Assembly: GCA_039033475.1 (NCBI GenBank)
Contig: JBCCCO010000005.1
Coordinates: forward strand, 2,106 to 66,105
DNA length: 64,000 bases
Reading direction: 5' to 3'
From: Pseudomonadota bacterium
GTDB lineage: Bacteria; Pseudomonadota; Alphaproteobacteria; Rhizobiales; CBDHHC01
Below, one piece after another: positions 1,904-63,507 of this stretch. Every line of letters starts with the position of its first letter. Positions within the stretch are counted from its first letter, which is position 1. The position numbers and the translations under genes are program-made. A model generated the notes under the pieces. That model had not been told where the DNA came from. It saw only the letters and a program-made list of their open reading frames with translations, and did not search any database.

Positions 1904-1950
1904 TGAGGGGCTTGGTGTTTAAAACGCCTTTTTCTTAATCCTACTGGGAT
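1904..1950. repeat. Hairpin-repeat family locus R0: solo C tail
   Basis: TTGGTGTTTAAAACGCCTTTTTCTTAATCCTACTGGGAT matches the C module found at 7111, 9246, 42303 and other sites. Confidence 0.7.
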
Positions 1951-1965
1951 TACATAAAAACCATG

Positions 1966-2655
1966 TTATCTTTGTCCGCGTTCTCCAAAGAGGGCTGTTC
2001 CTACTCGGATATAAGTTGCGCCAAATTGAATGGCGGTTTCATAGTCTGCGCTCATGCCCATACTAAGTTCTTTCAAACCTAAGGCTGATGCTTTTTTTGC
2101 CAGTAAAGCAAAGTGGAGAGCTGGTTCTTCTTCCATGGGAGGGATACACATCAGACCTGCGATTGGCAAGCGTAAGTCGTGCTGGCAATATTCCACAAAT
2201 TCATCGAGTTGTTCGGTGGCGATGCCTGCTTTTTGCGGCTCTTCTCCGGTATTGACCTGAATAAAAAGTTTGAGCTGTTTGTCTTGGGTTTCCATTTGGT
2301 CTTTGATGGTCTTGGCAATTTTGGACCGGTCAACTGTATGGATGACATCAAAAAGGGCTACGGCCTCTTTGGTTTTGTTTGATTGTAATGGGCCAATGAG
2401 ATGCAATTCAACACCTGGGTATGTTGCTTTAAGTTGCGGCCATTTTTTTTGCGCTTCTTGTACTCGATTTTCCCCAAAGATGCGATGACCAGCTTCAAGC
2501 AGCGGCGTAATGGAGTTTTCATCTTGGGTTTTGGAGACCGCAATAAGGTTTATGTCATCTGGCGGGCGTTTTATAAGGTGGGCTGCTTGTGCAATTTTTT
2601 GTTTGATATCATGCAAACGATGTTGGTTTTTTTCTGTAGGGGGCATAAACAGCAC
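1966..2655 (-). CDS. yggS: YggS-family pyridoxal-phosphate homeostasis protein
   Basis: The ORF is 229 aa with the FGENRVQE and SMGMSxDxxxAI motifs typical of YggS/PROSC. Confidence 0.85.
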   Translation of the reverse strand: MLFMPPTEKNQHRLHDIKQKIAQAAHLIKRPPDDINLIAVSKTQDENSITPLLEAGHRIFGENRVQEAQKKWPQLKATYPGVELHLIGPLQSNKTKEAVALFDVIHTVDRSKIAKTIKDQMETQDKQLKLFIQVNTGEEPQKAGIATEQLDEFVEYCQHDLRLPIAGLMCIPPMEEEPALHFALLAKKASALGLKELSMGMSADYETAIQFGATYIRVGTALFGERGQR

Positions 2656-2802
2656 GTGTGCTTTTGTTGGATTTGCTGGTAAATGTTGAATTCTTAATGC
2701 AATTGTCTATAAGAGATAATTAGTAATTGCCACATTTTTTGTGGCTTGTTTTATAAAATAATAATCAGAACATCTGAAAGTCGGTTGATCTAGAGAATTG
2801 CT

Positions 2803-7082: not shown

Positions 7083-7227
7083 AGAGATTCCCGCTTTCGC
7101 GGGAATGACAATGGAGAGGTTTGGTATTAAAAATGCGCTTTTCTTAATCCTACCAGGGTTATAAGCTAAAATCTGCATTGTTTATGTGATTAACGTTACA
7201 GAGATCCTAGCTTTCGCTGGGATGACG
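7083..7227. repeat. Hairpin-repeat locus R1: A hairpin + C tail, spacer, then a second A hairpin
   Basis: AGAGATTCCCGCTTTCGCGGGAATGAC plus C occupies 7083-7160. GAGATCCTAGCTTTCGCTGGGATGACG occupies 7201-7227. Confidence 0.9.
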
Positions 7228-9064: not shown

Positions 9065-9314
9065 CTGCAATTTGGGATAGGAAAAAAATGAAAAAATACC
9101 CTAGCCACCCTGCCAGGTATGAGCCAGATCGGTGATTTGTGAAAAAAATCACTGTGTGGCCGAAAAATAGTTCTTTGACCGGGATTCCATTTTTCAATGC
9201 AAGACCGGTATAACCTGTTTGAGATTCCCGCTTTCGCGGGAATGACGGTGGAGAGTTTTGTTTTTTAAAATGCACTTTTCTTATCCATAACCGGGGCTAC
9301 ATTTGTTATTTTTA
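9065..9314. mobile_element. 250-bp insertion or duplication bounded by a 17-bp perfect direct repeat, carrying an A+C hairpin-repeat unit
   Basis: TACATTTGTTATTTTTA occurs at 9048-9064 and again at 9298-9314. The interior contains GAGATTCCCGCTTTCGCGGGAATGAC plus a C tail (9221-9297). Confidence 0.55.
9221..9297. repeat. Hairpin-repeat locus R2: A hairpin + C tail (inside the rsmG/parA insertion)
   Basis: GAGATTCCCGCTTTCGCGGGAATGACGGTGGAGAGTTTTG...CTTTTCTTATCCATAACCGGGG. Confidence 0.9.
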
Positions 9315-11911: not shown

Positions 11912-12172
11912 GGAAATGGATATAGCAAGAATGAACGAAAAGTTAAAGATTGTTTCATGTGAAACAAACACATTAACAAATACTTTCGAAGACTCTGAAA
12001 TGATTCAGAAAGATTCGAGATAGACTCAAAACGACTCTAAATATGATGTTCTAGACTCATTTTTTACTGAAGTGACTTTTAGAGTTATTGGGGGAAAAGG
12101 AAGAGTAATGTTTGTGATTAGTGATTTTTTTTCCTGGTAAAATTCGATGGATGTTTAAAGCACTACTTTTGC

Positions 12173-12309
12173 GCCATACTTGCGAAAGCTGGGATCTTAA
12201 CAAAAAAACTCAGCGAGATCCCAGCTTTCGCTGGGATGACGGAGTGTGTTTCGTGGGAATGACGAACTGAAAGTATCTTAGAATATATAAACCATTCTAA
12301 ATTAGATCC
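12173..12309. repeat. Hairpin-repeat locus R3: degenerate inverted A, A hairpin, half-A + D tail
   Basis: GAGATCCCAGCTTTCGCTGGGATGAC lies at 12215-12240. GGGAATGACGAACTGAAAGTATCTTAGAATATATAAACCATTCTAAATTAGATC runs to 12309. Confidence 0.85.
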
Positions 12310-12316
12310 GCTATAC

Positions 12317-13744
12317 TCATTTGCCAATGCAGAATGAGCTGAAAATCTCGCCAAGTATGTCTTCCACATCAATGCGACCGGTGATACGGCCGATGGCATT
12401 GGCGGCGATGCGCAAATGCTCAACCTGTAATTCAAGCGGCAACTCTTGTGCATTTAAAAATGACTTCAGGGACTCTTTACAAATTTCAAGATGCTCGCGG
12501 TGGCGCGCGCGGGTGATCAGGAGCGCATCTTGTGTTCCAAGAGTGGTTTGTACATGCTGTGAAATATGATCAATCAGATGATTCACACCAAACCCTGTTT
12601 TGGCCGAAATTAATAATGCGTTTTCTACTATGTCTTCGGGATCGCGTTTTTGTAGGTTTTGCTGCACAGTCTTGATGTCTTCTGATGAAAATTGATCAAC
12701 TTTATTGAGTACCAAGCACGTTACAGGTTTGCTTTGTGCAATGCTCTCACTGTCTTGATTTAAGATATGCTCTAGCTCTTTAACAAAAGAGGGGGCGTTG
12801 TTCGTGCTATTACTCACTTGCGCTATATCTTCACACCAGAGGACCAGATTGGCATTTGAGATATAAGATTGCGCGCGGCGGATGCCTTCTTGTTCTATTT
12901 TGTTATGCGCCTCACGAATTCCAGCTGTGTCTGTTATTATTACCGCATATCCGTTGAGATTTAGGTGTACTTCAATGGCATCTCTTGTGGTACCAGCTTC
13001 TTCAGAGACAATTGCAGCTTGCCTTTGGGATAGCACATTCAACAGGGTGGATTTGCCGGCGTTTGGTGGTCCAGCAATGACAATACGAAAGCCATCACGC
13101 ATGATTTCTCCACGGTGATTGTCTTGCAAATGCTCTTTTATTGACTTGTTGGACTCTTTAATCTGTTGATAGGCTTGACTTGCCACGCTTTGCGGAACAT
13201 CTTCTTCATCGGAAAAGTCTAATTCTGCTTCAATATAAGCTAATCCTGTTATTATCGTATTGCGCCAGCTTTCATATAATATTCCTAACGCCCCTGTTGA
13301 TTGTTGCAATGCTTGGCGTCGCTGGCTTTCGGTTTGAGCATTGATTAGATCTGCCAGCCCTTCGATTTGGGTTAAATCCATTTTGCCGTTTAGAAATGCG
13401 CGGCGGGAAAACTCTCCTGGTTCTGCCAACCGCAAGCCTTGACAGCAGCTTAGCGCCTCTAAGACACTCTCAATTACAGCTTTGCCACCGTGAATGTGAA
13501 ATTCGCACACGTGTTCTCCGGTAAAACTGCTCGGGGCCGGAAAGCTTATCACAAGGGCATGGTCAAGGTGCTCCCTTGTTATGGGATGGGTTAGGGTGCG
13601 AAGGCTCGCCTGCCGTGGCCTAGGTGTTGTGCCCGCTATTTCATTAAGTGTGCGCTCAACACCCGGCCCTGAGATACGGATGATAGCAACGCCTGCCCGG
13701 CCTGGCGCTGTTGAAAGGGCATATATGGTCTCTTGATCTGACAT
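12317..13744 (-). CDS. mnmE: tRNA modification GTPase MnmE (TrmE/ThdF)
   Basis: The ORF is 475 aa with G1 motif GPPNAGKST and the characteristic C-terminal FCIGK. Confidence 0.95.
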   Translation of the reverse strand: MSDQETIYALSTAPGRAGVAIIRISGPGVERTLNEIAGTTPRPRQASLRTLTHPITREHLDHALVISFPAPSSFTGEHVCEFHIHGGKAVIESVLEALSCCQGLRLAEPGEFSRRAFLNGKMDLTQIEGLADLINAQTESQRRQALQQSTGALGILYESWRNTIITGLAYIEAELDFSDEEDVPQSVASQAYQQIKESNKSIKEHLQDNHRGEIMRDGFRIVIAGPPNAGKSTLLNVLSQRQAAIVSEEAGTTRDAIEVHLNLNGYAVIITDTAGIREAHNKIEQEGIRRAQSYISNANLVLWCEDIAQVSNSTNNAPSFVKELEHILNQDSESIAQSKPVTCLVLNKVDQFSSEDIKTVQQNLQKRDPEDIVENALLISAKTGFGVNHLIDHISQHVQTTLGTQDALLITRARHREHLEICKESLKSFLNAQELPLELQVEHLRIAANAIGRITGRIDVEDILGEIFSSFCIGK

Positions 13745-13760
13745 GGAGGGTTCGTGAATG

Positions 13761-13824
13761 CTTTAGCTGGAATGATGAGTTGAAAGTATCTTGATAAAAA
13801 TAAACCATTTAAAAATTAGATCAG
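13761..13824. repeat. Hairpin-repeat locus R4a: half-A + D tail
   Basis: GCTGGAATGATGAGTTGAAAGTATCTTGATAAAAATAAACCATTTAAAAATTAGATCAG. Confidence 0.8.
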
Positions 13825-13896
13825 ATGTTGTTTTAAAATAAGATAATTGTAACTTACCTGGAAAATAAAGATATAAAATTATGCTATGTCCACATA

Positions 13897-13923
13897 GGTC
13901 CCCGCTTTCGCGGGAATGAAGGC
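13897..13923. repeat. Hairpin-repeat locus R4b: solo A hairpin
   Basis: GGTCCCCGCTTTCGCGGGAATGAAGG lies immediately upstream of the thioredoxin-domain ORF. Confidence 0.8.
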
Positions 13924-13926
13924 GAT

Positions 13927-16068
13927 GTGGATCTTTATTTCACTTTTGTAGCGTTAGGAATATCCCTCGTGTCATCAAACCATCTTCAATACGAAACCAG
14001 CCCTTATTTGTTGCAACATAAAGATAACCCTGTTCATTGGTGGGCTTGGGGGACTGATGCGCTGGCCGAAGCGCGGCGACTGCATAAACCGATCCTGCTT
14101 TCTGTTGGTTATGCGGCCTGTCATTGGTGCCATGTTATGGCGCACGAAAGTTTTGAGGATGAAGCAACGGCGGCGCTGATGAATAATCTCTTTGTTAATA
14201 TCAAAGTTGATAGGGAAGAGCGTCCTGATATTGATGCACTTTATATGGATGCACTGCACATGATGGGAGAGCAGGGAGGCTGGCCGCTTACGATGTTTTT
14301 GACGCCCAAAGGTGAGCCGTTTTGGGGTGGCACGTATTTTCCGAAAAAACCGAGCTATGGTCGTCCTTCATTTCAAACAATTTTGAAAGAAATTGCTCGG
14401 ATATACAAGGAGGAGCCTAAAACAGTTTTAAACAACAGTGACGTTATTACCAAACATCTCAAACAGCATTCTTCGTTTCTAGTTAACTCCGCTGACGATG
14501 GAGACTCTGTCATATTAAATAGCTCTCAACTTCGAGAATTTGCAAATAAGCTTTACGATATCGTTGACCTAAAATGGGGTGGTACTCAGGGCGCGCCTAA
14601 ATTTCCTCAAGTTGGTTTGTTCGAATTTTTATGGCGTAAGGGGTTACACCTCAATAATACTGACTTTCAGGGCTCTGTGCGTTTAAGTTTGCGCAACATG
14701 TGCCAAGGTGGGATTTATGATCATCTTGGTGGCGGGTTTGCACGGTACTCTGTCGATGATAAATGGCTAGTGCCGCATTTTGAAAAAATGCTCTATGACA
14801 ATGCATTGTTGCTAGATTTGATGTGCGAAGTATCGCGCGAGACAGAAGACCCTTTGTTAAAACAAAGAATTTTTGAAACAGCGGAATGGGTGTTGCGAGA
14901 GATGATTGCTGAGGGGGGTGGGTTTGCTGCTTCCCTTGATGCAGACTCAGAAGGTGTTGAAGGTAAGTTCTATGTCTGGGACCGTGATGAGGTGATTGCT
15001 GTTCTCCGTGATAGGGGTATGGGGGATATGGTTGAGCCTTTTTGTAAGATTTATGATGTTCAAGAAAACGGGAATTGGGATGGGAAAACTATTTTAAATC
15101 GGCTGGAGGCAATCGATTATTTTGGGGAGGATGGTGCTATGGAGGGTGGGGAGGATATGGAGATGGACCTCCAGAAGTGTCGAAACATCCTCCTGAATGC
15201 CAGGACTCACAGGATAAGACCTTCCTGGGATGATAAAGTATTGTCCGACTGGAATGGTTTGATGATCACTTCCCTCGCAAAAGCAGGAGAGATTTTTGCT
15301 CAGACACATTGGATTGCAGCAAGCATTACAGCGTTTGATTTCGTTGTTACGCAGATGATGGAAGTCGGGCGGCTTTATCATAGCTACCGAGCAGGGCAAG
15401 CTAAAGTGTCTGCCATCTCATCTGATTATGCGAATATGATTGGTGCGGCGCTCTGTCTTTATCAGATTACGACAGAAGAAAAATATCTCGACTATGCCAA
15501 GGATTGGGCAGATATTTTGGACCAGTATTATTGGGATCACGATGAAGGAGGATATTTCCTCATTGCGCAGGATACGAATGATGTTCTTATTCGACAAAAG
15601 TCTGCACGGGACGATGCCACGCCGAGCGCCAATGGAGTTATGGTGTCAGAATTATCGAAGCTGTTCGTCTTAACTGGAGAGATGTCTTATAAGGATCGTG
15701 CTGAGAAATTGGCGCAGGTTTTTTCATCATCTGCTGGCGACAATTTGTTTGCTCATACAAAATTCTTTTCTGGAATATTGGATTTGTCGTCATTGATTCA
15801 CGTGGTTATTTCAGGTCAAAATAAAGAAGGAAGAGATGCATTTGTGAAAGCGTTTTATGATGTCTCACTTCCAGGCGCTGTTTTGCAAGTTGTCCCTGAT
15901 GCTTCTGTTTTGCCAGAGCATTCCCCTGCTAAGCCAAAGGCCATCACATCGGATGGTGTTGTTGCTTATATTTGTGTTGGAGCATTGTGCCTTGAGCCCG
16001 CAACAGATTTGGCTGATTTTAGAGGGAGGCTGTTGTTAGCTCGGGGAGATAGGTTAACAAACATTTAA
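13927..16068 (+). CDS. Thioredoxin-domain protein of the YyaL/DUF255 family (thioredoxin fold plus six-hairpin glycosidase-like domain)
   Basis: SPYLLQH..NPVHWW and CHWCHVM motifs. The true start may be the GTG at 13969. Confidence 0.8.
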   Translation: MDLYFTFVALGISLVSSNHLQYETSPYLLQHKDNPVHWWAWGTDALAEARRLHKPILLSVGYAACHWCHVMAHESFEDEATAALMNNLFVNIKVDREERPDIDALYMDALHMMGEQGGWPLTMFLTPKGEPFWGGTYFPKKPSYGRPSFQTILKEIARIYKEEPKTVLNNSDVITKHLKQHSSFLVNSADDGDSVILNSSQLREFANKLYDIVDLKWGGTQGAPKFPQVGLFEFLWRKGLHLNNTDFQGSVRLSLRNMCQGGIYDHLGGGFARYSVDDKWLVPHFEKMLYDNALLLDLMCEVSRETEDPLLKQRIFETAEWVLREMIAEGGGFAASLDADSEGVEGKFYVWDRDEVIAVLRDRGMGDMVEPFCKIYDVQENGNWDGKTILNRLEAIDYFGEDGAMEGGEDMEMDLQKCRNILLNARTHRIRPSWDDKVLSDWNGLMITSLAKAGEIFAQTHWIAASITAFDFVVTQMMEVGRLYHSYRAGQAKVSAISSDYANMIGAALCLYQITTEEKYLDYAKDWADILDQYYWDHDEGGYFLIAQDTNDVLIRQKSARDDATPSANGVMVSELSKLFVLTGEMSYKDRAEKLAQVFSSSAGDNLFAHTKFFSGILDLSSLIHVVISGQNKEGRDAFVKAFYDVSLPGAVLQVVPDASVLPEHSPAKPKAITSDGVVAYICVGALCLEPATDLADFRGRLLLARGDRLTNI

Positions 16069-16086
16069 AGACTAATAGGTTCAAAA

Positions 16087-18114: not shown

Positions 18115-18212
18115 TTAGCACATCTATTGTTTTAAATATTTTGTTTTTTATTTGCATATAAAACTGACCACTGTGATCCCAGCGATAAGTCAGGATTCTT
18201 TTTGAAACTCTT

Positions 18213-18292
18213 GGGATTCCAGTTTTTGCTGGAATGATGAGCCTAGAGTATCTTAATAAAAGTGAATTATTTTTTTAAATCGAAACTGCTGT
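18213..18292. repeat. Hairpin-repeat locus R5: A variant + degenerate D tail
   Basis: GGGATTCCAGTTTTTGCTGGAATGATGAGCCTAGAGTATCTTAATAAAAGTG... Confidence 0.75.
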
Positions 18293-18302
18293 AATTCTTA
18301 CA

Positions 18303-19298: not shown

Positions 19299-19389
19299 TT
19301 ATAATTATTTTTGGTCTATATTACATATTGTTATACCAACTTCAAATGCAGATTTTTTTCAGAGCAGATCAGTTTTGCGTGGCCTGTTT

Positions 19390-30163: not shown

Positions 30164-30211
30164 GGTGTGTCTCTCATTCTATTCCTATGAACCGAATTAA
30201 GGGGCTCTAAT

Positions 30212-30354
30212 TAAGCCCAGTTATGGATAAGGGAAAAAAATACCTCCGTCATTCCAGCCAGAAAATAGTTATTTTGTTTTAGATTCCAGCTTTCACTGGA
30301 ATGACAAACGGAGTTTATCTTGATAAAATCAAACCATTTAAAAGTTGGATCAGT
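30212..30354. repeat. Hairpin-repeat locus R6: inverted C, half inverted A, spacer, A hairpin, D tail
   Basis: TAAGCCCAGTTATGGATAAGGG...CCGTCATTCCAGCC is followed by AGATTCCAGCTTTCACTGGAATGAC (30281-30305) and then D. Confidence 0.85.
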
Positions 30355-30394
30355 TATATTTACGGATGGTGTTTTATTACAATTTTTGTGAAAA

Positions 30395-31072: not shown

Positions 31073-31098
31073 TTGCGTTTGGTTATAAAAAACTATAG

Positions 31099-31242
31099 CT
31101 GGTTCAACCTAAAATGGTTTATTTTTATCAAGATGCTCTCAATTTGTCATTCCAGCGAAAGCTGGAATCTTTAAATATCAGTATGTTGCAAGTTCCAGAG
31201 ATCCCGGCTCGCGTGCATTAGATGCACTTGGCCGGGATGACG
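31099..31242. repeat. Hairpin-repeat locus R7 (inverted): D, A, spacer, B extended hairpin
   Basis: GTCATTCCAGCGAAAGCTGGAATCT lies at 31146-31170. CCAGAGATCCCGGCTCGCGTGCATTAGATGCACTTGGCCGGGATGACG lies at 31195-31242. Confidence 0.9.
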
Positions 31243-35917: not shown

Positions 35918-35920
35918 GAT

Positions 35921-36075
35921 AACCTTAAGTAGGATTAGGGAAATTGCATTTTATATATCAAAACGTGCCACCGTCATTCCCGCGCAAGCGGGAATCTCGG
36001 AAAAGTTGCAATGAGATCCCAGCTTTCGCTGGGATGACGAGGTATTTCATATTTTTCTCATCCATAACTGGGCTT
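35921..36075. repeat. Hairpin-repeat locus R8 between hisA and hisF: inverted C + inverted A, spacer, A + C (overall palindromic doublet)
   Basis: GTCATTCCCGCGCAAGCGGGAATCTC lies at 35973-35998. GAGATCCCAGCTTTCGCTGGGATGACG lies at 36013-36039. Confidence 0.9.
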
Positions 36076-36086
36076 CATATCATATT

Positions 36087-38835: not shown

Positions 38836-38957
38836 AAAATCACCCAGAGATCCCCGCTTTCGCGGAGATGAAGATGGGTGATTTTTTGAGATTCCCGCTT
38901 TCGCGGGAATGACCAACCGAGAGTATCTTAAAATATAAATCATGTTGGATTGGATCT
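38836..38957. repeat. Hairpin-repeat locus R9: extended hairpin (outer 10-bp stem around an A-type core, then a T-run), A hairpin, D tail
   Basis: AAATCACCCA (38837-46) pairs with TGGGTGATTT (38875-84) around GAGATCCCCGCTTTCGCGGAGATGAAG. GAGATTCCCGCTTTCGCGGGAATGAC lies at 38888-38913. Confidence 0.85.
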
Positions 38958-39004
38958 ATATCCCAAGCTTTTTGTTTTGGAAGGTAACTAAAATCTAATC
39001 TGAA

Positions 39005-42127: not shown

Positions 42128-42204
42128 GTTGATGTCTAACCCGATTTAGAAGATATTTTAAAAGGTATGTTGTTCTATGAAAATTCATAAAACAAAAGCC
42201 CCTC

Positions 42205-42355
42205 ATCATCCCGGCCAAGTGCATGCAATGCACGTGAGCAAAGGATCTCTGAAACGTAAAACTATTGATAACCAAAGAGATTCCAGCTTTCGCTGGAATG
42301 ACGGTGGCGCGTTTTGGTGTTTAAAATATACTTTTTCTTATTCATAATTGGGATT
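42205..42355. repeat. Hairpin-repeat locus R10: B extended hairpin, spacer, A hairpin, C tail
   Basis: ATCATCCCGGCCAAGTGCATGCAATGCACGTGAGCAAAGGATCTCTG ... AGAGATTCCAGCTTTCGCTGGAATGAC ... GGTGTTTAAAATATACTTTTTCTTATTCATAATTGGGATT. Confidence 0.9.
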
Positions 42356-42785
42356 ACCCTAGAGCGTTGCGTAGTTTTGTTGCGTGCTCAGCTAAGATGT
42401 CTTGTTCAGCCATTATGCCTGGGGGGCGAAGCTCTACACCTTCTTGTCTTGGTAAAATATGAAAATGGAGATGAAACACTTCTTGGCCTGATGCGGCCTC
42501 ATTAAATTGCTGAATAAGAAGGCCTTGTGCTGCAAAAACTGTTATTGCGGCTTTGCCAATTGTTTTTACAGTCTGAATAACAGCTGTTAAATCGTCTGGA
42601 TTAATATCTAATATGTTACGGCATGGGGCTTTGGGAATAACCAGGGTATGGCCATCGCTGCGTGGCATAATATCCATAAAGGCGAGCACTTTATCTGTTT
42701 CATAAACATTATGACAGGGGATTTCGCCGCGCAGTATTTTTGCAAAGATATTGTCATTCTCATATGTTGCTGTCTTTTCAGTCAT
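42354..42785 (-). CDS. HIT family hydrolase
   Basis: Histidine triad HLHFHILP. The start is taken at MTEKTATYEND (42785), which overlaps the upstream stop by 8 nt. Confidence 0.9.
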   Translation of the reverse strand: MTEKTATYENDNIFAKILRGEIPCHNVYETDKVLAFMDIMPRSDGHTLVIPKAPCRNILDINPDDLTAVIQTVKTIGKAAITVFAAQGLLIQQFNEAASGQEVFHLHFHILPRQEGVELRPPGIMAEQDILAEHATKLRNALG

Positions 42786-44195: not shown

Positions 44196-44216
44196 AAATT
44201 GCTAAAGTAGCATAGC

Positions 44217-46040: not shown

Positions 46041-46072
46041 GATGAGCTCTTGTTTTAAGCTGCTTTTTTAAA

Positions 46073-46250
46073 CCTTAGTGGATTTAAGAAAAAAGACGAA
46101 ATACCCTTGTCATCCGCGAGAAAGCGGAGATTTCCTTTTTCAAGGTAACACCTTAATCAATTACTCACAGATTCCAGCTTTTGCTGGAATGACAGTGGAG
46201 AGTTTGGGTGTTGAGAATGCAATTTCCTTAATCTTATTGGATTTTTACGT
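46073..46250. repeat. Hairpin-repeat locus R12: inverted C, inverted A variant, spacer, A hairpin, C tail; overlaps the 3' end of the PAP2 ORF
   Basis: GTCATCCGCGAGAAAGCGGAGATTTCC lies at 46109-46135. CAGATTCCAGCTTTTGCTGGAATGAC lies at 46168-46193. Confidence 0.85.
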
Positions 46251-50249: not shown

Positions 50250-50897
50250 ATGAAAAAAATTGCTTTAGCTTTTTCAATGATTTTAATGACCTTTGTAGGG
50301 TCTCAAAGTGGGATCGCCAGTCAGAAATCAGAGATGACCGATCTTTTGAATAATCTGAAAAAAGGTGGTTACATTGTGTACATGCGCCATCCACAGACAG
50401 ATAAATCTCAAAGAGATACGGATATAAAAAATCTTGCCAGTTGCGATACTCAGAGAAATCTTAGTAATGTGGGTAGAGAGACGGCTGGAAAAATTGGTCA
50501 GGCTATAAAATCACTGGATGTGAAATTTTCAGTCATTAAAACAAGTGAATACTGCCGTGCTCGTCAGGTTCCCGAATTGATGGGTATCAAAACGTTTGAG
50601 ATTACACCGGATCTTAATCACAGTGGAAATATGGAAGAGCCTGCAGGAGAGCAGCAAGTTCAGAAGTTGCGAACTTTTTTTGCTGAACCCCCTAAGGGAG
50701 GCATGAATACACTGCTTATTGGCCATTCCCCAAATGTTATTGCAATGGATCCAAATTTGATTTCAAAAGGTTTTAAGTCTGGTGATATGCTTGTTCTAAA
50801 ACCTAAGGCAGACAAGTCAGGGTATACTTTTGTAGGTCGCATTGCTCCCAAAGATTGGGATAGCCTTAAGGTTAAGCTTGCGTCACGTAATAAATAA
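50250..50897 (+). CDS. Secreted histidine phosphatase superfamily protein (SixA/PGAM-like)
   Basis: It has a signal peptide (MKKIALAFSMILMTFVG), a catalytic RH motif (YMRHPQTD) and a distal LLIGHSPN. Confidence 0.75.
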   Translation: MKKIALAFSMILMTFVGSQSGIASQKSEMTDLLNNLKKGGYIVYMRHPQTDKSQRDTDIKNLASCDTQRNLSNVGRETAGKIGQAIKSLDVKFSVIKTSEYCRARQVPELMGIKTFEITPDLNHSGNMEEPAGEQQVQKLRTFFAEPPKGGMNTLLIGHSPNVIAMDPNLISKGFKSGDMLVLKPKADKSGYTFVGRIAPKDWDSLKVKLASRNK

Positions 50898-54556: not shown

Positions 54557-54633
<77 letters not shown>

Positions 54634-58662: not shown

Positions 58663-58977
58663 TTACTCAATATACCGAAAGCCTGTGCCATATGCGATCA
58701 CTTCAACGCCGCCATCAACAAGGCTGGGGTGGGAGAGGCGGACGGCGACAACGCCATCATATCCTAAGTCTTTTGCACGGCTATCTAATTTTCCTAAAGC
58801 GCGGCTAATGGCTTTTTCTGAAAGTTCTTCATATTTGTGCATTTGGCCGCCAAATGTGTTGGTGATTTTTTCGCGGACATCTTTGATAATATTGGCAGCT
58901 TCGACCGCGCAAACGGAGATGAGTTCGCCTTCTTCTATTTCGCGGTTCGAAAAACGTTCTGTGGTGTGTAGGGTCAT
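58663..58977 (-). CDS. ybjQ: YbjQ/UPF0145 family protein
   Basis: The ORF is 104 aa from MTLHTTERF, with the G..I..V.G....A..I....R and DG..A.R motifs. Its ATG overlaps the upstream stop (ATGA at 58974-58977). Confidence 0.8.
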   Translation of the reverse strand: MTLHTTERFSNREIEEGELISVCAVEAANIIKDVREKITNTFGGQMHKYEELSEKAISRALGKLDSRAKDLGYDGVVAVRLSHPSLVDGGVEVIAYGTGFRYIE

Positions 58978-60836
58978 GTTTTGTCTTTGGCTGATATGTC
59001 TTGGGGGACGTATTGTACAACAACGGGTTTGCGGCGACCAAATATTAGCCTGTATAGGCTTAAGCTCAAAAGGAGAAAGATAAAGCCCGAGATCATGACC
59101 GCGAAGGGTTGTTTGCTCCAAAGTAAAAATGGGTGAATTTCCCCTTGGAGTACCAGCCCGGCGTCATCTGGAAAATTTAAAAACTCTAGAGATGATGGTT
59201 CGCGCAAAATATAGGATATTGCTTTTTGTTGATTTGAGCTGGCTAAAATGCCGTTGCGGACTTCTGTTCTGTCAAGCAAGATTATTTTTTGTGGGTTGTT
59301 TTTTATTCCTGAAACCAGTTTGCGCGATATGTTTGGCTCTAGCGATGAGAGATAAAAAGCAAGAGATGATAACTGCTCTGGTGATAGCTGGTTAGAAAAG
59401 GTTTTGAAATCACTTTTAGATAAACCTAGCAGAGCATTACGTTTTTTGACTGAAAATCCAGAAATGGAAGTGATGGTTTTTGTGTCTTGTAAAGATAGCA
59501 ATTTTTGCAAGGCGCTTTGCGTAAAGGTGTCTGGCAGTGTGGTCTTATGGAGTTGCAATTGAACAACTTTGTCGATTTTGGTGTTTGCCAGTTCGTACCA
59601 GGAAAAGGCATCTTGCAGTGAGTTGTTATCAACGGCTAAATCGACTGCGGGTTCTGGTAATGTTACGATAGCACGCTTTAGAAGGCCTCTTTCTAGAGCT
59701 TGGTTGATACCGCTTTCACCAGATTTTTCAAATAACAAAGAGATGACTTTATTGGTTTTTCGGAGTCGCTCGATTTTGATTTTGTCATCTGTGCTGTCAA
59801 TGTCTTGTAAAAACTGGCGAAATTCTGGGTTGTTTTTTGTGAGGTCTACGGTTCTTTGATTTTGTTTTTTGAATTCAAGCCATAAATCTATAATCCCTCG
59901 TGAAATATCTGGGGGAACTGTTTTGAGAATTTTGTTTACTTCGACTTTTAATTCGCTGATCAGTTCTGTTTGGATGCGTGTTTTGGCTTCATCTGATTTC
60001 ATTTCCTTGGCGATGATTGGCAGTACGCCAAGGCGTAAATCCCACAGTTCTTTTGCAACCAAAATCCAGCCAATTATGCTAACAGCGGCTCCTACTGCTC
60101 TGGTGACAAGAGCACCGACAAGCCTGCGTCCCAATGCTTGAGAGAGACGGGTTAGTATTGTTTGGCGTAGGATGAGGAGAAGACCGCCTGTTAGACCAAC
60201 GGAAGATTCTTTGATGATGTCTGTGACAGATGTTTGTGATTGGGAGGCATCAGGATTAAACGTCATTTGGTTGCGCGTTTGGGTGGAGACCAGAGACGCT
60301 ATGGTTTGGCCGTATTGCGGGCCGATAAATTTTTGCACGCATTGTGATATGGGGTCAGCGGCTTTTAAGCTGAGAATATCGAGTTTTTTGCTAAGGGCAT
60401 TGCCAACATCTGTTGCGATGAGTTCGATGGTTTGTTCGAATTTTTCAGAGCCATAGACAGAGGTGGCAAGCTCTTGGGCCAGTTGTTCTCTTGCTTTTTG
60501 TGATGTTAGGGTTTGCACCAATTCGAGGATGGATTTATCCGCGCGCAGACGGTTCACTTCTAAGTCGACCAAATTATCAATTTTGGTGTTGATGCGGTTT
60601 TGCGTCCATGATGTATCAACGATAAATTTGTAATTTAAGTGCTGAACTGTGTCTTGCAGGACGTCTTGTAAAATGATTTCAAGTTGTTTGCGAAAGGCTT
60701 GTTCAGAGGAGACATTGCAACTTATTTCAGTTGCGGCCAATTGCGCGTGGGCTGGTTTATAGGTTTGCAAAAATGGTAGTATGCTTAAGCAAAATGAAAC
60801 CAGAAGCGCGATTAGTGGTTTGGTTGGTTTGGCCAT
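58974..60836 (-). CDS. Large membrane-anchored helical protein of unknown function
   Basis: The ORF is 620 aa. It has a signal peptide (..PAHA-Q), a central hydrophobic hairpin (GLTGGLLLIL...AVGAAVSIIGWILVA) and a C-terminal TM followed by a basic tail. I recognise no family. Confidence 0.6.
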   Translation of the reverse strand: MAKPTKPLIALLVSFCLSILPFLQTYKPAHAQLAATEISCNVSSEQAFRKQLEIILQDVLQDTVQHLNYKFIVDTSWTQNRINTKIDNLVDLEVNRLRADKSILELVQTLTSQKAREQLAQELATSVYGSEKFEQTIELIATDVGNALSKKLDILSLKAADPISQCVQKFIGPQYGQTIASLVSTQTRNQMTFNPDASQSQTSVTDIIKESSVGLTGGLLLILRQTILTRLSQALGRRLVGALVTRAVGAAVSIIGWILVAKELWDLRLGVLPIIAKEMKSDEAKTRIQTELISELKVEVNKILKTVPPDISRGIIDLWLEFKKQNQRTVDLTKNNPEFRQFLQDIDSTDDKIKIERLRKTNKVISLLFEKSGESGINQALERGLLKRAIVTLPEPAVDLAVDNNSLQDAFSWYELANTKIDKVVQLQLHKTTLPDTFTQSALQKLLSLQDTKTITSISGFSVKKRNALLGLSKSDFKTFSNQLSPEQLSSLAFYLSSLEPNISRKLVSGIKNNPQKIILLDRTEVRNGILASSNQQKAISYILREPSSLEFLNFPDDAGLVLQGEIHPFLLWSKQPFAVMISGFIFLLLSLSLYRLIFGRRKPVVVQYVPQDISAKDKT

Positions 60837-60943
60837 CACATTCTCTCATGACGAAGGTGTATTATGATATAATTCACATATTACGCTTTGTGTCTATATG
60901 TTAAGTGGGTGGTGTGGGGCTAACTTTTTTAGCTTAACTTATT

Positions 60944-61113
60944 AACCCCAGTAGGATCAAGAAAGTTGTATTTTAAACACCAAAACGCGCCACCGTCATC
61001 CCGGCCAAGCGCATATAAAGCGCGCTAGCCGGGATCTCTGGAACTTTCAACATACTGATATTTAAGAGATTCCCGCTTTCGCGGGAATGACGGTGGATAG
61101 TTTTATGCTTTCG
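60944..61113. repeat. Hairpin-repeat locus R13: inverted C, B extended hairpin, spacer, A hairpin, truncated C
   Basis: GTCATCCCGGCCAAGCGCATATAAAGCGCGCTAGCCGGGATCTCTGG lies at 60995-61041. AGAGATTCCCGCTTTCGCGGGAATGAC lies at 61065-61091. Confidence 0.9.
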
Positions 61114-61173: not shown

Positions 61174-62091
61174 CTAAACCGAGCGTTTTCGCTTTGGACC
61201 AAACAGGCAGGTTATGCCAAGTATGATGCCAGAAATAGTTGCGATCATGCCTGCCGCGCTGACAGCATGTTCAAAACCAAGCCATAGTGGAGCGTAGCCT
61301 GCAAGGATATATCCCAAAATTGCAGACAAGATTGCAAAAACAATGCTCCAGAGCACTTGGATGTGGAGCTGGTTTGTCATGAGGCGGGCTGAGGCTGGGG
61401 GGCAGATAAACATGGCAATGACTATAATGGAGCCGACGGCATCAAATGCGGCAACGGCTGTTATTGCAACAATTACCACGATTGCAAATCCAAGAGTGTT
61501 GGTGGGAAGATTGAGGCTTTTGGCAAAAGCTTCATCAAATGTGGAAATTGTTAGCTCTTTCCAAAACAGAACAACAAAACCAGATACTGTAATCATCACT
61601 ATAAATAGCCGCAACAGTTGCGGGGGAAGATCGGCCAGAGCTTTTCTGTCTAATAGAGATTCCCAGCCGGTTGCAGAAAGCCAGATGAGACTTTCCAAAT
61701 TGCCATAAAGGGCATGTTCAACATCTAGGTGGACCCCACTTGTTTCGGTTTGCTCTAATAACAGGACACCTGCTGCAAACAGGGTGGTGAAAATAACCCC
61801 CATGGCTGCACCTGGCTCAATGCGCCCTAAGCGGCGGGTTAATTCAATAAGGATGGCTGCGATGATGGAGGCAATGGTGGCTCCTAGCATCACAGGCCAA
61901 GCGTTTATCGTTCCTGTGATCAGAAAGGCAATGACAATGCCAGGGAGAACCACGTGGCTTATGGCATCTCCAATGAGTGCTTGTTTGCGTAAGACTAGAA
62001 AGTTGCCGGGAATGGCACAGCATATGGCTGCCAAGGTTGCGATGAGAAGAGGCACTAAGCTGAGTTGTACGAATTCGGCTGCAAATGTCAT
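61174..62091 (-). CDS. Metal (Mn/Fe-type) ABC transporter permease, ABC-3 family (SitD/MntD/YfeD-like)
   Basis: The ORF is 305 aa with the DAISHVVLPG motif. It has an ATGA overlap with the upstream permease. Confidence 0.85.
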   Translation of the reverse strand: MTFAAEFVQLSLVPLLIATLAAICCAIPGNFLVLRKQALIGDAISHVVLPGIVIAFLITGTINAWPVMLGATIASIIAAILIELTRRLGRIEPGAAMGVIFTTLFAAGVLLLEQTETSGVHLDVEHALYGNLESLIWLSATGWESLLDRKALADLPPQLLRLFIVMITVSGFVVLFWKELTISTFDEAFAKSLNLPTNTLGFAIVVIVAITAVAAFDAVGSIIVIAMFICPPASARLMTNQLHIQVLWSIVFAILSAILGYILAGYAPLWLGFEHAVSAAGMIATISGIILGITCLFGPKRKRSV

Positions 62092-63302
62092 GAGGGCTTT
62101 AACCCGTTTATGTGCTGGTCAAGTTGGTGAATTTCATCTTTGGTGAAAACCTCTTCAATTGGAATAAGAGCTCCATATTGCGTGTGGGGATCATCGTTTT
62201 TGTATAGGGTTTGCGCTAGAGCCCAGCGGGCTTCATCTTGTAATGCTTTTTGAGCAGCGTGTTGTCCTGCTTCTGTGATAACGCCATCACCCTGAATAAA
62301 CTTGCGTTGTTTTAACAGCTTTATCGTGAGCCTATCATAGATGGTTTCCTGGCGGGCTAATGCGAGTAAGCCTTGGCGTAGGTGAACTTTTCTGGTGTAG
62401 GTCATTTGATTGATGACAAAGGCAAGTAGTCCTCTTACCGGGGAGAGGATTAGCGATCCCAGAAATATTGTAAAACTGAGCAAAACAATGATGGGACCTG
62501 TGGGCAAGTTTGTTGCTATGCTTGAGAGGCATGCTCCGAGGTATCCTGCCAGTGCACCTAGGGTTGCAGCAAGAGCTACCATTCTGTCTGCTCTGTTTGT
62601 CCATAGTCTTGCGGTGACGGGAGGGATAATAAGTAAGGCGACACTTAGAACGAGGCCGACAATTTTTAAGCTGACAACGGTAATGATCAAGGCCAATGTC
62701 ATCATTAAAAGGTCGGTACGATTGATGCTTATTCCGCTTGTGGCCGCATGGTGGGGATCAAATGCGACACTGATCATTGCATAATGAAACATAAAGATTA
62801 TGATGGCGCACAAGGCGGCGATGCTGGCGATTGTTAAAGCTTCAGAATAGAGCATGCCTGCTGTTGAGCCGAGCAGAAATGTTTCCAGACCGGCTTGACG
62901 GCCAATTGGGATATTTTGGATGATCGTTAAAATGACAACGCCAAAGCCAAAGAAGACGGATAAAACAGCGCCGATGGCGGCGTCTTCACTGAGCCGTGTT
63001 TTGGTCACAATCCATTGCATCAGGACAACTCCGCATAGGGCTGAGGCTGTTGCTCCCAGTAATAGGCCTGGGAGGAGACGGCCGTCACCACCAAGATAAA
63101 CCATTGCGATAAAAGCCAGGCCAATGCCAGGTAAGCAGGCGTGGGCTATGGCATCGCTGATAAGAGCACGTTTGCGCAAAAATACAAACGTTCCAACACC
63201 CCCAGCAGCTAAGCCGAGCAGTGCTGTTCCTATGGTGACAAGGGCGGTGTTATATCCTGACTGAAGTGTTAATGCATTTATGAAAAGCTCAAGATGTGAC
63301 AT
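62088..63302 (-). CDS. Metal ABC transporter permease (SitC/MntC/YfeC-like) with a C-terminal cytoplasmic extension of about 114 aa
   Basis: The ORF is 404 aa. The ABC-3 core (DAIAHACLPG) ends at about LILSPVRGLL. The extension resembles a DtxR-type winged helix. Confidence 0.8.
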   Translation of the reverse strand: MSHLELFINALTLQSGYNTALVTIGTALLGLAAGGVGTFVFLRKRALISDAIAHACLPGIGLAFIAMVYLGGDGRLLPGLLLGATASALCGVVLMQWIVTKTRLSEDAAIGAVLSVFFGFGVVILTIIQNIPIGRQAGLETFLLGSTAGMLYSEALTIASIAALCAIIIFMFHYAMISVAFDPHHAATSGISINRTDLLMMTLALIITVVSLKIVGLVLSVALLIIPPVTARLWTNRADRMVALAATLGALAGYLGACLSSIATNLPTGPIIVLLSFTIFLGSLILSPVRGLLAFVINQMTYTRKVHLRQGLLALARQETIYDRLTIKLLKQRKFIQGDGVITEAGQHAAQKALQDEARWALAQTLYKNDDPHTQYGALIPIEEVFTKDEIHQLDQHINGLKPS

Positions 63303-63340
63303 GTTATTTGGTATTAGAAAACTTCAGTGTTTTATGAAAA

Positions 63341-63507
63341 TTAACAAAACAAAAGTAACTCGTCATCCCGGCAAAGTGCATGAAATGCACGCGAGCTAAG
63401 GATCTCTGGAACGTGCAACGCATTTATATTTAATGAAATTCCCGCTTTCGCGGGAATGACGAACTGAGAGTATCTTGATAAAAATAAACTATTCAATACT
63501 CGATCAG
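63341..63507. repeat. Hairpin-repeat locus R14 inside the metal ABC operon: B extended hairpin, spacer, A hairpin, D tail
   Basis: GTCATCCCGGCAAAGTGCATGAAATGCACGCGAGCTAAGGATCTCTGG lies at 63362-63408. GAAATTCCCGCTTTCGCGGGAATGAC lies at 63435-63460, and D runs to 63507. Confidence 0.9.

What the first reader, a model, noticed from the sequence alone, without database searches (positions are those of the whole stretch)
1904..63507. Dense family of modular hairpin repeats (REPIN / BIME / NIME-like mosaic) in 15 intergenic gaps
Reading the intergenic DNA shows one repeat family built from four modules. A is GAGATTCCCGCTTTCGCGGGAATGAC, an 8-bp stem with a 4-nt loop. B is an extended hairpin with the same termini, GTCATCCCGGC..GTGCAT-N-ATGCAC..GCCGGGATCTCTGG. 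C and D are two alternative tails of about 50 nt: C is GGTGGAGAGTTTTGGTGTTTAAAATGCACTTTTCTTAATCCTACTGGG and D is GAACTGAGAGTATCTTGATAAAAATAAACCATTTAAAAATTAGATCAG. Full units read [inverted C]-[inverted A or B]-spacer of 15-27 nt-[A]-[C or D] and span about 150-180 bp. That makes them inverted hairpin doublets, like REPINs. About two dozen hairpins occur in 64 kb, and all lie between genes or at gene ends. I saw no intact copy between about 19.3 and 30.2 kb (the origin-proximal core) or between about 46.3 and 60.9 kb. No transposase or RAYT gene is in the window. From memory, the core format ATTCCC-N8-GGGAAT is the same as the Neisseria dRS3 repeat that flanks NIME mosaic elements, which would be unexpected in an alphaproteobacterial background.
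Basis: partly seen in the sequence, partly recalled or inferred. Interest (0 to 1): 0.7.

Follow-up and report, generated by a model that had tools for sequence, protein, structure and literature searches.

The report
Ssn-type (dRS3-like) hairpin repeat mosaics
The intergenic hairpin repeats are real and belong to a known, very widespread family, the CGTC-tagged REP / "Ssn-related motif" (the same family as Neisseria dRS3/NTS); here they fill about 29% of the non-coding DNA of an uncultured alphaproteobacterium and carry lineage-specific 50-nt side modules.

Summary
I count 29 hairpin units in 16 intergenic gaps, against about 0 expected by chance. They mostly form inverted pairs flanked by recurrent ~50-nt modules: C, a short C', D, and a further module E.

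The reverse complement of module A is CGTCATTCCCGCGAAAGCGGGAATCTC. This is a CGTC-1 REP (Di Nocera 2013) and matches the first 26 of 28 nt of the Neisseria NTS, whose core is dRS3 (Chenal 2025). That family predominates in Alphaproteobacteria, so finding it here is not unexpected.

Its known partner is not a RAYT. It is SsnA, a ~100-aa GIY-YIG nuclease that binds the hairpin in single-stranded DNA and cuts just upstream.

- The exact 26-mer occurs in more than 120 loci from many phyla.
- In two loci (L110, a Hyphomicrobiales MAG, and L127) it flanks an ssnA homologue.
- The window holds no ssnA, RAYT or transposase gene.
- Orthologous gaps in the three nearest relatives lack the elements.
- Modules C, D and E were found nowhere else.

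Verdict: a new, unusually dense member of a known kind. The ssnA link for this genome is inferred, not shown.

The parts
1904..1952 (-). Solo long C module with no hairpin, 13 nt after the yggS stop codon
   Evidence: nhmmer C profile, E=6.7e-11; sequence read
7086..7226 (-). Head-to-tail pair downstream of parB: variant hairpin 7203-7226 (GTCATCCCAGCGAAAGCTAGGATC), C module 7112-7161, A hairpin 7086-7109
   Evidence: (two SRM regex hits)
9223..9299 (-). C module (9247-9299) plus A hairpin (9223-9246). The C module supplies the last 7 codons and the stop codon of gidB
   Evidence: GidB alignment: extra MDKKSAF tail compared with relatives
12173..12317 (.). Three-unit cluster: decayed hairpin 12173-12198 (+), hairpin 12217-12240 (-), half hairpin 12249-12264 (-), and D module 12265-12317 (-) abutting the trmE stop codon
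   Evidence: The Logan contig L001 of the same organism ends inside hairpin 12217-12240
13762..13830 (-). Decayed A hairpin plus D module in the divergent trmE / DUF255 gap
13889..13931 (-). Hairpin 13897-13920 (TTCATTCCCGCGAAAGCGGGGACC) nested inside a longer palindrome CCACAT...ATGTGG
18173..18293 (.). Outward-headed pair: hairpin 18173-18197 (+), A-type hairpin 18215-18238 (-), D module 18240-18293 (-)
30211..30358 (.). Short C' module 30211-30244 plus half hairpin 30250-30262 (+); A-type hairpin 30282-30305 (-); D module 30307-30358 (-)
31092..31241 (.). D module 31092-31144 (+), A-type hairpin 31146-31169 (+), conserved spacer of about 29 nt, extended hairpin B 31200-31241 (-)
35920..36076 (.). 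Full palindromic composite between hisA and hisF: C 35920-35972 (+), A 35973-35996 (+), 18-nt spacer, hairpin 36015-36038 (-), C' 36039-36076 (-)
   Evidence: hisA and hisF identified
38836..38959 (.). Hairpin 38849-38872 nested in a terminator-like palindrome (AAAATCACCCA...TGGGTGATTTTTT, 38836-38886); A hairpin 38890-38913 (-); D module 38915-38959 (-), downstream of the phasin gene
42153..42357 (.). E module 42153-42204 (+), B hairpin 42205-42247 (+), spacer, A-type hairpin 42279-42302 (-), C module 42303-42357 (-), which overlaps the HIT-gene stop codon
44081..44200 (.). Hairpin 44081-44104 (+), A hairpin 44123-44146 (-), C module 44148-44200 (-)
46068..46245 (.). C' 46068-46106 (+), hairpin 46109-46132 (+), A-type hairpin 46170-46193 (-), C 46195-46245 (-). 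The PAP2 ORF (46157-47032) reads through C and A for its last ~28 codons
49938..49961 (+). Decayed solitary hairpin TTCATCTCAATGAAAGTTGAGATT
60942..61112 (.). C 60942-60994 (+), B 60995-61036 (+), 29-nt spacer, A 61068-61091 (-), truncated C to about 61112 (-)
   Evidence: the 107-nt core folds at -31.3 kcal/mol, z = -7.6
63309..63513 (.). E 63309-63361 (+), B 63362-63404 (+), 30-nt spacer, A 63437-63460 (-), D 63462-63513 (-), lying between cistrons of an ABC-3 transporter cluster

Best explanation
The hairpins are CGTC-1 type REPs, also called Ssn-related motifs (SRM). This is the family that contains Neisseria dRS3/NTS.

Anatomy of one unit: an unpaired (C/T)GTC head, an 8-bp stem starting AT, a GAAA loop, and a C directly after the stem. 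Two units usually sit with their heads outward (Di Nocera's 'HH dimer'), 15-30 nt apart. Most pairs are heterodimers: A with B, or A with an ATCCCAGC variant. In this lineage the head of each unit abuts one of several ~50-nt repeat modules (C, C', D, E). The whole is therefore a 120-205-bp imperfect palindrome, comparable to a small NIME unit.

Proposed working (inferred from the family, not shown for this genome):
1. When the DNA is single-stranded, the d(GCGAAAGC)-cored hairpin extrudes.
2. A small GIY-YIG nuclease of the Ssn family (cd10448), encoded elsewhere in the genome, binds the hairpin.
3. It nicks that strand a few nucleotides 5' of the CGTC head, which here lies inside the proximal end of the C/D/E module.

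The elements behave as non-autonomous, lineage-specific insertions. They have accumulated in the few tolerated sites of a compact genome, typically 0-50 nt after a stop codon and sometimes inside an older terminator-like palindrome.

The A unit nearly always lies on the sense strand just after the upstream gene. The transcript would therefore end in, or carry, a GNRA-looped RNA hairpin. A secondary role in 3'-end protection or attenuation is plausible but untested.
For: Sequence identity to the family:
- The reverse complement of A is CGTCATTCCCGCGAAAGCGGGAATCTC. It is identical to the published NTS consensus CGTCATTCCCGCGMAVGCGGGAATCYRG over the first 26 of 28 positions.
- The published degenerate SRM pattern hits 8 copies, against 0.12 in shuffles.
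- All CGTC-1 features of PMC3733652 are present: 8-bp stem starting AT, 4-nt loop, CGTC/TGTC tag, short tail, outward-headed dimers, intergenic position.
- The positions critical for SsnA are the best conserved here. These are the GTC before the palindrome and the C after it.

Distribution and link to ssnA:
- 59 of 125 of those copies have an inverted partner on the tail side, with a median spacing of 24 nt. This is the architecture seen in the window.
- The hairpin-anchored loci hold 4 GIY-YIG ssnA homologues next to the hairpins.
- One of these is in the Hyphomicrobiales MAG L110, which shows the classical SRM-dimer / ssnA / SRM arrangement.
- The Logan contig L127, whose SsnA is 82% identical to that of L110, is flanked by three exact A-type hairpins.

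Evidence for insertion and selection:
- The gidB-parA gap is 255 bp here. It is 66 bp in L122 (90% ParB identity) and 16-17 bp in L123 and L125 (77-78% identity).
- The parB-holA gap is 197 bp here and 47-48 bp in L123 and L125.
- None of those relatives has A-type hairpins in these loci.
- Hairpin units are better conserved than their flanks: 0.81-0.86 against 0.63-0.67 mean pairwise identity. The stem also covaries.
- 12 of 14 A-type units, by manual tabulation, follow the stop codon of a co-oriented gene (binomial p = 0.0065).
Against: - No ssnA homologue lies in the 64 kb. The rest of the source genome could not be reached. The cognate nuclease is therefore inferred for this organism.
- About 19% of genomes with more than 200 SRMs lack a detectable ssnA (PMC11893778).
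- No transposition mechanism has been shown for SRMs in any organism.
- I found no target-site duplications.
- No relative is close enough (the best is 78% nucleotide identity) to show a clean filled-versus-empty site.
- The 3' tail here is CTC(T/A), not the Neisseria CYRG or the CCA typical of CGTC REPs.
- Hairpin B has a 26-nt loop and so falls outside the published SRM pattern.
- The RNA-level role rests only on position and orientation. The hairpins are not followed by T runs, and the terminator scan shows no clear excess: 29 found against 22 +/- 4.1 expected.
Confidence: 0.75

Rival explanations
1. REPINs: inverted REP doublets mobilised by a RAYT (an IS200/IS605-type Y1 transposase) encoded elsewhere in the genome.
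For: The inverted-doublet architecture and intergenic location resemble REPINs. RAYT genes are single-copy and could lie outside the window.
Against: RAYT-associated REPs carry a GTAG tag. These carry CGTC or TGTC. Di Nocera et al. found no RAYT or other transposase gene flanked by CGTC repeats in any species. Identical hairpins in other genomes flank GIY-YIG ssnA genes instead. No Y1_Tnp domain is present in the window.
Confidence: 0.03
2. Classical MITEs: deletion derivatives of a DDE-type insertion sequence. The C modules would be the terminal inverted repeats, and the hairpins merely internal passengers.
For: Three composites (35920-36076, 46068-46245, 60942-61112) have C-type modules in inverted orientation at both ends. 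The whole unit folds as a long palindrome. The modules are lineage-specific.
Against: I saw no target-site duplication at the outer ends (sequence read). The ends are heterogeneous: C/C', C/D, E/C, E/D and D/none occur. This does not fit one transposase recognising one terminal repeat. The best-conserved part is the internal hairpin, not the termini. Hairpin pairs without such arms occur across many phyla.
Confidence: 0.07
3. Host-evolved regulatory hairpins (terminators, mRNA stabilisers or protein-binding sites) that arose in place, with no mobile or nuclease-linked origin.
For: 12 of 14 A units sit on the sense strand just after a stop codon. They carry a GNRA loop. One copy is embedded in a terminator-like stem followed by a T run (38836-38886). 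Several copies lie between cistrons, for example hisA-hisF and the ABC-3 cluster.
Against: Independent origin cannot explain ~50-nt flanks shared between unrelated loci, an identical 26-mer shared across phyla, or absence from orthologous gaps in relatives. Most copies have no T tract, and the terminator-like sites show no clear excess. C and D have no conserved fold of their own. This reading is credible only as a secondary, acquired role.
Confidence: 0.05
4. The hairpins are chiefly attachment or target sites for an IS110/Piv-type recombinase, as dRS3 is for Neisseria filamentous prophages.
For: Phage-encoded transposase/recombinase integration into dRS3 is documented (PMC1797815). As general knowledge, IS110-family elements often target REPs.
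Against: No IS110/Piv gene, prophage or insertion interrupts any of the 29 hairpins in the window. Being a target would not explain how the repeats multiplied. This reading is also compatible with the main explanation.
Confidence: 0.05

Closest known systems
Ssn-related motifs (SRM) / Neisseria Transformation Sequence (NTS), the recognition hairpins of SsnA GIY-YIG ssDNA nucleases (Chenal et al. 2025, PMC11893778)
   Same: The first 26 of 28 nt match the NTS consensus. The motif is an oriented hairpin with a (C)GTC head and a C after the stem. 8 copies match the published SRM pattern. The location is intergenic. The identical hairpin flanks ssnA homologues in L110 and L127.
   Different: The tail is CTC(T/A) rather than CYRG. 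The host is an uncultured Hyphomicrobiales-like alphaproteobacterium. Extended hairpin B (26-nt loop) lies outside the SRM pattern. Conserved ~50-nt side modules are present. The cognate ssnA was not seen for this genome, and no link to natural transformation is known.
CGTC-1 family of CGTC-tagged REPs (Di Nocera et al. 2013, PMC3733652)
   Same: 8-bp stem beginning AT, 4-nt loop, CGTC/TGTC tag, short unpaired tail, outward-tagged ('HH') dimers, predominance in Alphaproteobacteria. There is a precedent for dimers embedded in longer palindromes (H. neapolitanus).
   Different: The tail is CTC instead of the usual CCA. Heterodimers dominate here, whereas homodimers predominate in CGTC-1 overall. 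Density is very high (0.45 units per kb).
Neisseria dRS3 / NIME arrays (PMC1797815)
   Same: Seven copies fit ATTCCC-N8-GGGAAT exactly. Several families of ~50-nt repeat blocks (C, C', D, E) adjoin the hairpins, as RS elements adjoin dRS3. Small dRS3-RS-dRS3-like units exist (7086-7226, 12173-12317).
   Different: There are no long arrays; the maximum is 3 hairpins per gap. Paired hairpins are separated by 15-30 nt, not by 50-150-bp RS blocks. The elements sit among housekeeping genes, not surface-antigen genes.
REPIN / RAYT and E. coli BIME systems
   Same: Short GC-rich extragenic palindromes form inverted doublets with alternating variants and accumulate after stop codons.
   Different: A different terminal tag (CGTC, not GTAG), no RAYT association, and a different partner protein class (GIY-YIG nuclease rather than an HUH Y1 transposase).
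Rickettsia palindromic elements (RPE-6 = CGTC-1 according to PMC3733652)
   Same: The same hairpin superfamily in an alphaproteobacterium. Repeat DNA is read through by ORFs (the gidB tail and the PAP2 tail here).
   Different: RPEs are typically inserted in frame inside genes. Here only the 3' ends of two ORFs run into the elements.

Membership tests
SRM / NTS (Ssn-related motif) | Matches the published degenerate pattern HGTCWYN(0-2)YYVSBRHN(0-5)WNVSBRGN(0-2)RNCYNB, enriched over shuffled sequence | tested here: met
   8 matches against a mean of 0.12 (maximum 2) in 100 dinucleotide shuffles. Most other copies miss by one tail base or have decayed.
SRM / NTS (Ssn-related motif) | Oriented hairpin: conserved GTC just 5' of the palindrome and a C just 3' of it (the positions critical for SsnA cleavage and binding) | tested here: met
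   Alignment A2: T3 and C4 of the head are at least 90% conserved. C follows the stem in 17 of 22 copies. The stem pairs in 93.8% of cells and shows covariation.
SRM / NTS (Ssn-related motif) | The genome encodes a cd10448-type GIY-YIG Ssn nuclease, typically flanked by the motif | not testable with these tools
   None is present in the 64-kb window. The rest of the MAG could not be retrieved. The same hairpin does flank ssnA homologues in L110, L127, L004, L024 and L073.
SRM / NTS (Ssn-related motif) | Bound and cleaved by the cognate Ssn only as single-stranded DNA and only in the CGTC orientation | not testable with these tools
   This requires a biochemical assay.
CGTC-1 REP | Terminal CGTC (or TGTC) tag, 8-bp stem starting AT, 4-nt loop, short unpaired tail | tested here: met
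   Alignment A2 consensus is CGTC-ATTCCAGC-GAAA-GCTGGAAT-CTCT.
CGTC-1 REP | Mostly dimers with the tags outside ('HH'), and rarely intragenic | tested here: met
   12 of 16 loci hold an outward-headed pair. 28 of 29 units lie outside long ORFs.
Neisseria dRS3 / NIME | 20-bp repeat ATTCCC-N8-GGGAAT | tested here: met
   7 exact instances.
Neisseria dRS3 / NIME | Long arrays in which many dRS3 copies are separated by 50-150-bp RS elements of many families | tested here: not met
   At most 3 hairpins per gap. Partners are 15-30 nt apart. Only four side-module families (C, C', D, E) occur.
REPIN / RAYT | GTAG-tagged REP doublets with a cognate RAYT gene flanked by the same REPs | tested here: not met
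   The tag is CGTC or TGTC. No Y1 transposase domain is present in the window. Published work finds no RAYT association for CGTC REPs.
MITE | Uniform terminal inverted repeats, target-site duplication, and a related autonomous IS | tested here: inconclusive
   Inverted C arms occur in 3 composites, but the ends are heterogeneous. No duplication was seen. A parent IS cannot be sought outside the window.

The most novel reading that the evidence does not exclude
The composites could be NIME-type mosaics outside Neisseria that are still being moved or reshuffled by an Ssn nuclease. The same hairpins occur with different ~50-nt modules (A+C, A+D, B+C, B+E). The shared sequence ends within about 10 nt of the position where SsnA is known to nick, 3 nt 5' of CGTC. 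Under this reading the module swaps are scars of hairpin-guided single-strand cleavage and rejoining. That would be an IS200/IS605-like 'peel and paste' carried out by a GIY-YIG enzyme, and the first natural evidence for how SRMs multiply. The tandem arrays of half-hairpins seen in other phyla (L026, L047) could be related footprints.
Probability: 0.12. Interest if true: 0.7.

Novelty: new member of a known kind. Interest (0 to 1): 0.32.

Why it matters
The hairpin family itself is already described: CGTC REPs in 2013, and the partner nuclease SsnA in 2025. The finding therefore does not reveal a new kind of element.

Its value is as a clean natural example outside Neisseria. Roughly 29% of the non-coding DNA of a compact alphaproteobacterial region consists of Ssn-type hairpin pairs. 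Interchangeable side modules join close to the predicted nicking site. The units show a strong sense-strand, post-stop-codon placement. Two ORFs have tails written by the repeat.

How SRMs spread, and what Ssn nucleases do in non-competent bacteria, are open questions. A genome like this one would be a good place to test them. For annotation, it matters that such repeats are labelled SRM/CGTC-REP rather than REPIN or terminator. They also break short-read assemblies, as seen for L001.

Tried and rejected
- **Bartonella-like host.** I guessed this from GC content and gene order. It is rejected. The window's ParB is 100% identical to an NCBI 'MAG: Pseudomonadota bacterium' protein, and the nearest labelled relative is a Methyloligellaceae MAG at 78% identity.
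- **Retrieving the rest of the source genome.** The exact-protein look-up of P0001 is not on record. MnmE returned only an 8.6-kb Logan contig identical to window 12216-20793.
- **Looking for this lineage's ssnA.** I searched with the L110 SsnA and fetched three Logan candidates. None came from the source sample and none carried C/D/E modules. L127 did show ssnA flanked by exact A-type hairpins.
- **Metagenome scan with a C-module pattern.** It gave one hit, and that hit has no adjacent hairpin, so it is a chance match.
- **Modules C, D and E in the fetched loci from other genomes.** None were found.
- **Promoter and terminator scan of 1-20 kb.** There is no excess of promoter-like sites, and the A hairpins are not called as terminators.
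- **Conserved fold in C or D.** RNAalifold predicts only the hairpin itself.
- **Rfam at gathering thresholds.** Only the tRNA-Arg was found.
- **Target-site duplications at the outer ends of composites.** None are convincing.
- **A strand bias related to replication.** GC skew is positive throughout the window, so the replication direction cannot be assigned and I dropped this line.

Full report

Yes. The 26-nt module A occurs 9 times at up to 3 mismatches, 5 of them exact, and never in 100 dinucleotide-preserving shuffles. The looser core ATTCC-N10-GGAAT occurs 12 times against 0.08 expected. The head of module B occurs 7 times against 0.56 expected.

The repeat finder groups the hairpins with their tails into families of 35-78 nt. 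Profile searches built from the aligned tails recover 11 C-type copies, 7 D copies and 2 copies of a third module. The C-type copies comprise 8 long and 3 of a shorter C' form with an internal deletion. I call the third module E (TTTTATGAAAATTNAYAAAACAAAAG, upstream of B at 42153 and 63309). Nothing else in the window matches these profiles.

Reading every gap gives 29 hairpin units in 16 non-coding gaps. The window is 88.7% coding, yet 28 of the 29 units lie outside long ORFs. The chance of that for 16 loci is about 7e-16. The elements sum to about 2.1 kb, roughly 29% of the 7,177 bp of non-coding DNA.

The stem is maintained by compensatory substitutions (ATTCCCGC, ATTCCAGC, ATCCCAGC and ATCCCGGC, each with its matching 3' arm). 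93.8% of cells pair. 20 cells carry changes on both sides, against 8.8 in shuffles, and slid registers pair in at most 41.5% of cells.

As single-stranded DNA, unit A folds at -9 kcal/mol (z = -4.2), B at -14.8 kcal/mol, and the B-spacer-A core at -31.3 kcal/mol (z = -7.6).

**2. Which organism?**

The gene content is the classical origin-region set of Hyphomicrobiales (Rhizobiales):
- leuS, lptE, holA
- parB, parA, gidB, gidA, trmE
- rho, hemE
- ppsR, maf, aroE, coaE, dnaQ
- further on, hisBHAFE, polA and an ABC-3 transporter

My first guess of Bartonella was wrong. The ParB is 100% identical to a protein of an NCBI 'MAG: Pseudomonadota bacterium' on a 68,977-bp contig. The next relatives are at 90% and 85% (unnamed Logan contigs) and 78% (a MAG labelled Methyloligellaceae).

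**3. What is the hairpin?**

Written on the other strand, A is CGTCATTCCCGCGAAAGCGGGAATCTC. Two papers define this object.

Di Nocera et al. 2013 (PMC3733652) sorted prokaryotic REPs into GTAG-tagged and CGTC-tagged superfamilies.
- CGTC-1 has an 8-bp stem beginning AT, a 4-nt loop, a CGTC or TGTC tag and a short tail.
- It forms mostly dimers with the tags outside.
- It predominates in Alphaproteobacteria.
- It has no associated transposase.
- In Neisseria it corresponds to dRS3.

Chenal et al. 2025 (PMC11893778) extended this.
- dRS3 (ATTCCC-N8-GGGAAT) is the core of a 28-nt oriented element, NTS (CGTCATTCCCGCGMAVGCGGGAATCYRG).
- NTS-like 'Ssn-related motifs' (SRM) occur in many phyla.
- They are spatially associated with ssnA, a 94-aa single-domain GIY-YIG gene (cd10448).
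- SsnA binds the hairpin only as single-stranded DNA, only in the CGTC orientation, and cuts a few nucleotides upstream.

The window's A unit equals the NTS consensus over its first 26 of 28 positions. The published degenerate SRM pattern hits 8 copies against 0.12 in shuffles. The positions that the mutagenesis found critical are the best conserved here: GTC before the stem and C after it.

**4. Evidence from other genomes**

These come from Devosia, Inquilinus, Neomegalonema, Rickettsiales, Bdellovibrionales, Bacteroidota, Chloroflexota, Fibrobacter, Patescibacteria and others. In 59 of 125 copies an inverted partner lies on the tail side at a median of 24 nt, and most pairs are heterodimers. 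This is the doublet seen in the window.

The hairpin-anchored loci (966 kb in all) contain four GIY-YIG ssnA homologues next to the hairpins.
- In L110, a Hyphomicrobiales MAG, the order is outward-headed dimer, then ssnA, then hairpin.
- A Logan contig whose SsnA is 82% identical to that of L110 carries three exact A-type hairpins around the gene.

The A hairpin is therefore the flanking motif of an SsnA clade present in the same bacterial order as the window's organism.

**5. What is specific to this lineage?**

Modules C, C', D and E were not found in any of the other fetched loci. A metagenome scan with a C pattern gave only one chance match. The modules have no conserved fold of their own. 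They are less conserved than the hairpins: 0.63-0.67 against 0.81-0.86 mean pairwise identity. This fits selection or homogenisation acting on the protein-recognised hairpin while the flanks drift.

Orthologous regions of the three nearest relatives lack the elements.
- The gidB-parA gap is 255 bp here, 66 bp in L122, and 16-17 bp in L123 and L125.
- The parB-holA gap is 197 bp here and 47-48 bp in L123 and L125.
- The trmE-gidA gap is 345 bp here and 117 bp in L123 and L125.

L122 instead carries a different CGTC variant (CGTCATTGCGAGCG...CGCGGCAATCCA) in its parA-parB gap. Different variants have thus invaded different gaps in sister lineages. A short-read contig of the same organism ends exactly inside hairpin 12217-12240, as expected for a high-copy repeat.

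**6. Placement and likely consequences**

The module-plus-A unit typically begins 0-50 nt after a stop codon. In 12 of 14 cases, by manual tabulation, it is on the sense strand of the upstream gene (binomial p = 0.0065). The partner hairpin faces the next gene.
- In two cases the repeat supplies the end of an ORF. The last seven codons and the stop codon of gidB lie in C. The PAP2 ORF reads through C and A for about 28 codons.
- Two hairpins are nested in longer palindromes. One of them is followed by a T run (38836-38886). This echoes Di Nocera's note that some REP dimers sit inside longer palindromes, and it hints at insertion into pre-existing terminator hairpins.
- The hairpins themselves lack T tracts, and the terminator scan shows no clear excess.

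An RNA-level role, such as protection of 3' ends by a GNRA-looped stem, remains an inference from position only.

**7. Mechanism and status of each step**

Shown here:
- family identity
- pairing and covariation
- intergenic restriction
- orientation bias
- lineage-specific insertion
- association of the identical hairpin with ssnA in other genomes

Taken from the literature: SsnA binds and nicks the CGTC strand as single-stranded DNA, upstream of the hairpin.

Inferred:
- that this genome encodes such an enzyme.
- that the enzyme acts on A and B
- that it has anything to do with multiplication of the repeats

Rivals:
- RAYT-driven REPINs have the wrong tag and no published association.
- Classical MITEs would need uniform ends and target duplications; the ends here are heterogeneous, no duplication was seen, and the core is the best-conserved part.
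- Regulatory hairpins evolved in place cannot explain shared 50-nt flanks or identity across phyla.
- IS110 target sites are compatible with the main explanation but do not account for multiplication.

**8. Verdict**

This is a new, very dense member of a known kind: CGTC-1 REP / SRM, the dRS3-NTS family.
- The dRS3 resemblance is real and reflects family membership.
- Its presence in an alphaproteobacterium is expected.
- The relevant partner is a GIY-YIG nuclease, not a RAYT.

The remaining interest lies in the interchangeable side modules that join near the predicted nicking site. Interest also lies in using such a genome to test how SRMs spread.

Noticed in passing
L026:2621-2811; L047:1559-1724 and 2221-2374 (also L046, L092): Tandem arrays of the 5' half of the hairpin, each array ending in one full hairpin. 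In a Bdellovibrionales MAG the 18-nt unit GTCATTCCCGCGAAGCTT is repeated 10.6 times at 100% identity. In an Alphaproteobacteria MAG a 24-nt unit, CACAAACACTCGTCATTCCCGCAT, is repeated 6-7 times. This is unexplained. It could be a footprint of slippage or of repeated cleavage and repair at the Ssn site.
   Followed up: partly
window 9247-9299 (gidB 3' end) and 46157-46245 (PAP2 ORF 3' end): Repeat DNA supplies ORF ends. GidB has a 7-aa tail (MDKKSAF) and its stop codon inside module C; both are absent in the L123/L125 relatives. The PAP2-family ORF reads through C and A for its last ~28 codons.
   Followed up: partly
window 11991-12054: Six GANTC (CcrM methylation) motifs lie within 64 bp upstream of gidA, against 1.47 per kb on average. 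By eye, the same gap in relatives L122 and L123 also has GANTC clusters and a TGTTTCACGTGAAACA-type palindrome. This suggests a conserved cell-cycle regulatory region.
   Followed up: partly
window 38836-38886 and 13889-13931: SRM-like hairpins are nested inside longer palindromes. The first (AAAATCACCCA...TGGGTGATTTTTT) looks like a bidirectional intrinsic terminator with the repeat in its loop. This suggests insertion into pre-existing hairpins.
   Followed up: partly
L122:3860-3990 and 1-40: The closest available relative (90% ParB identity) carries a different CGTC-tagged variant (CGTCATTGCGAGCG...CGCGGCAATCCA) in its parA-parB gap and at a contig end. That gap is only 63 bp and repeat-free in the window.
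   Followed up: no
window 22554-22979: The 426-bp AT-rich hemE-ppsR gap is where Caulobacter-type origins lie. It is free of the repeats and has only one near-consensus DnaA box (22649). GC skew stays positive across the whole window, so an origin here is not confirmed.
   Followed up: partly
window 31172-31199, 42248-42276, 61037-61065, 63405-63434: The spacer between B and A is itself conserved (TCTGGAAC...ATACTGATATTTAA, about 29 nt) in the four B-A pairs. Spacers of the other pairs are unrelated. B-spacer-A therefore behaves as one ~100-nt unit.
   Followed up: no
window 54557-54633: tRNA-Arg(CCG) on the minus strand is the only Rfam or ARAGORN hit in the window.
   Followed up: no
window 50199-50897, 52359-53234, 58974-60839: Three sizeable ORFs (232, 291 and 621 aa) have no Pfam match. 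They lie in the repeat-free 46-61 kb stretch, which also has the lowest GC content of the window (0.37-0.39).
   Followed up: no
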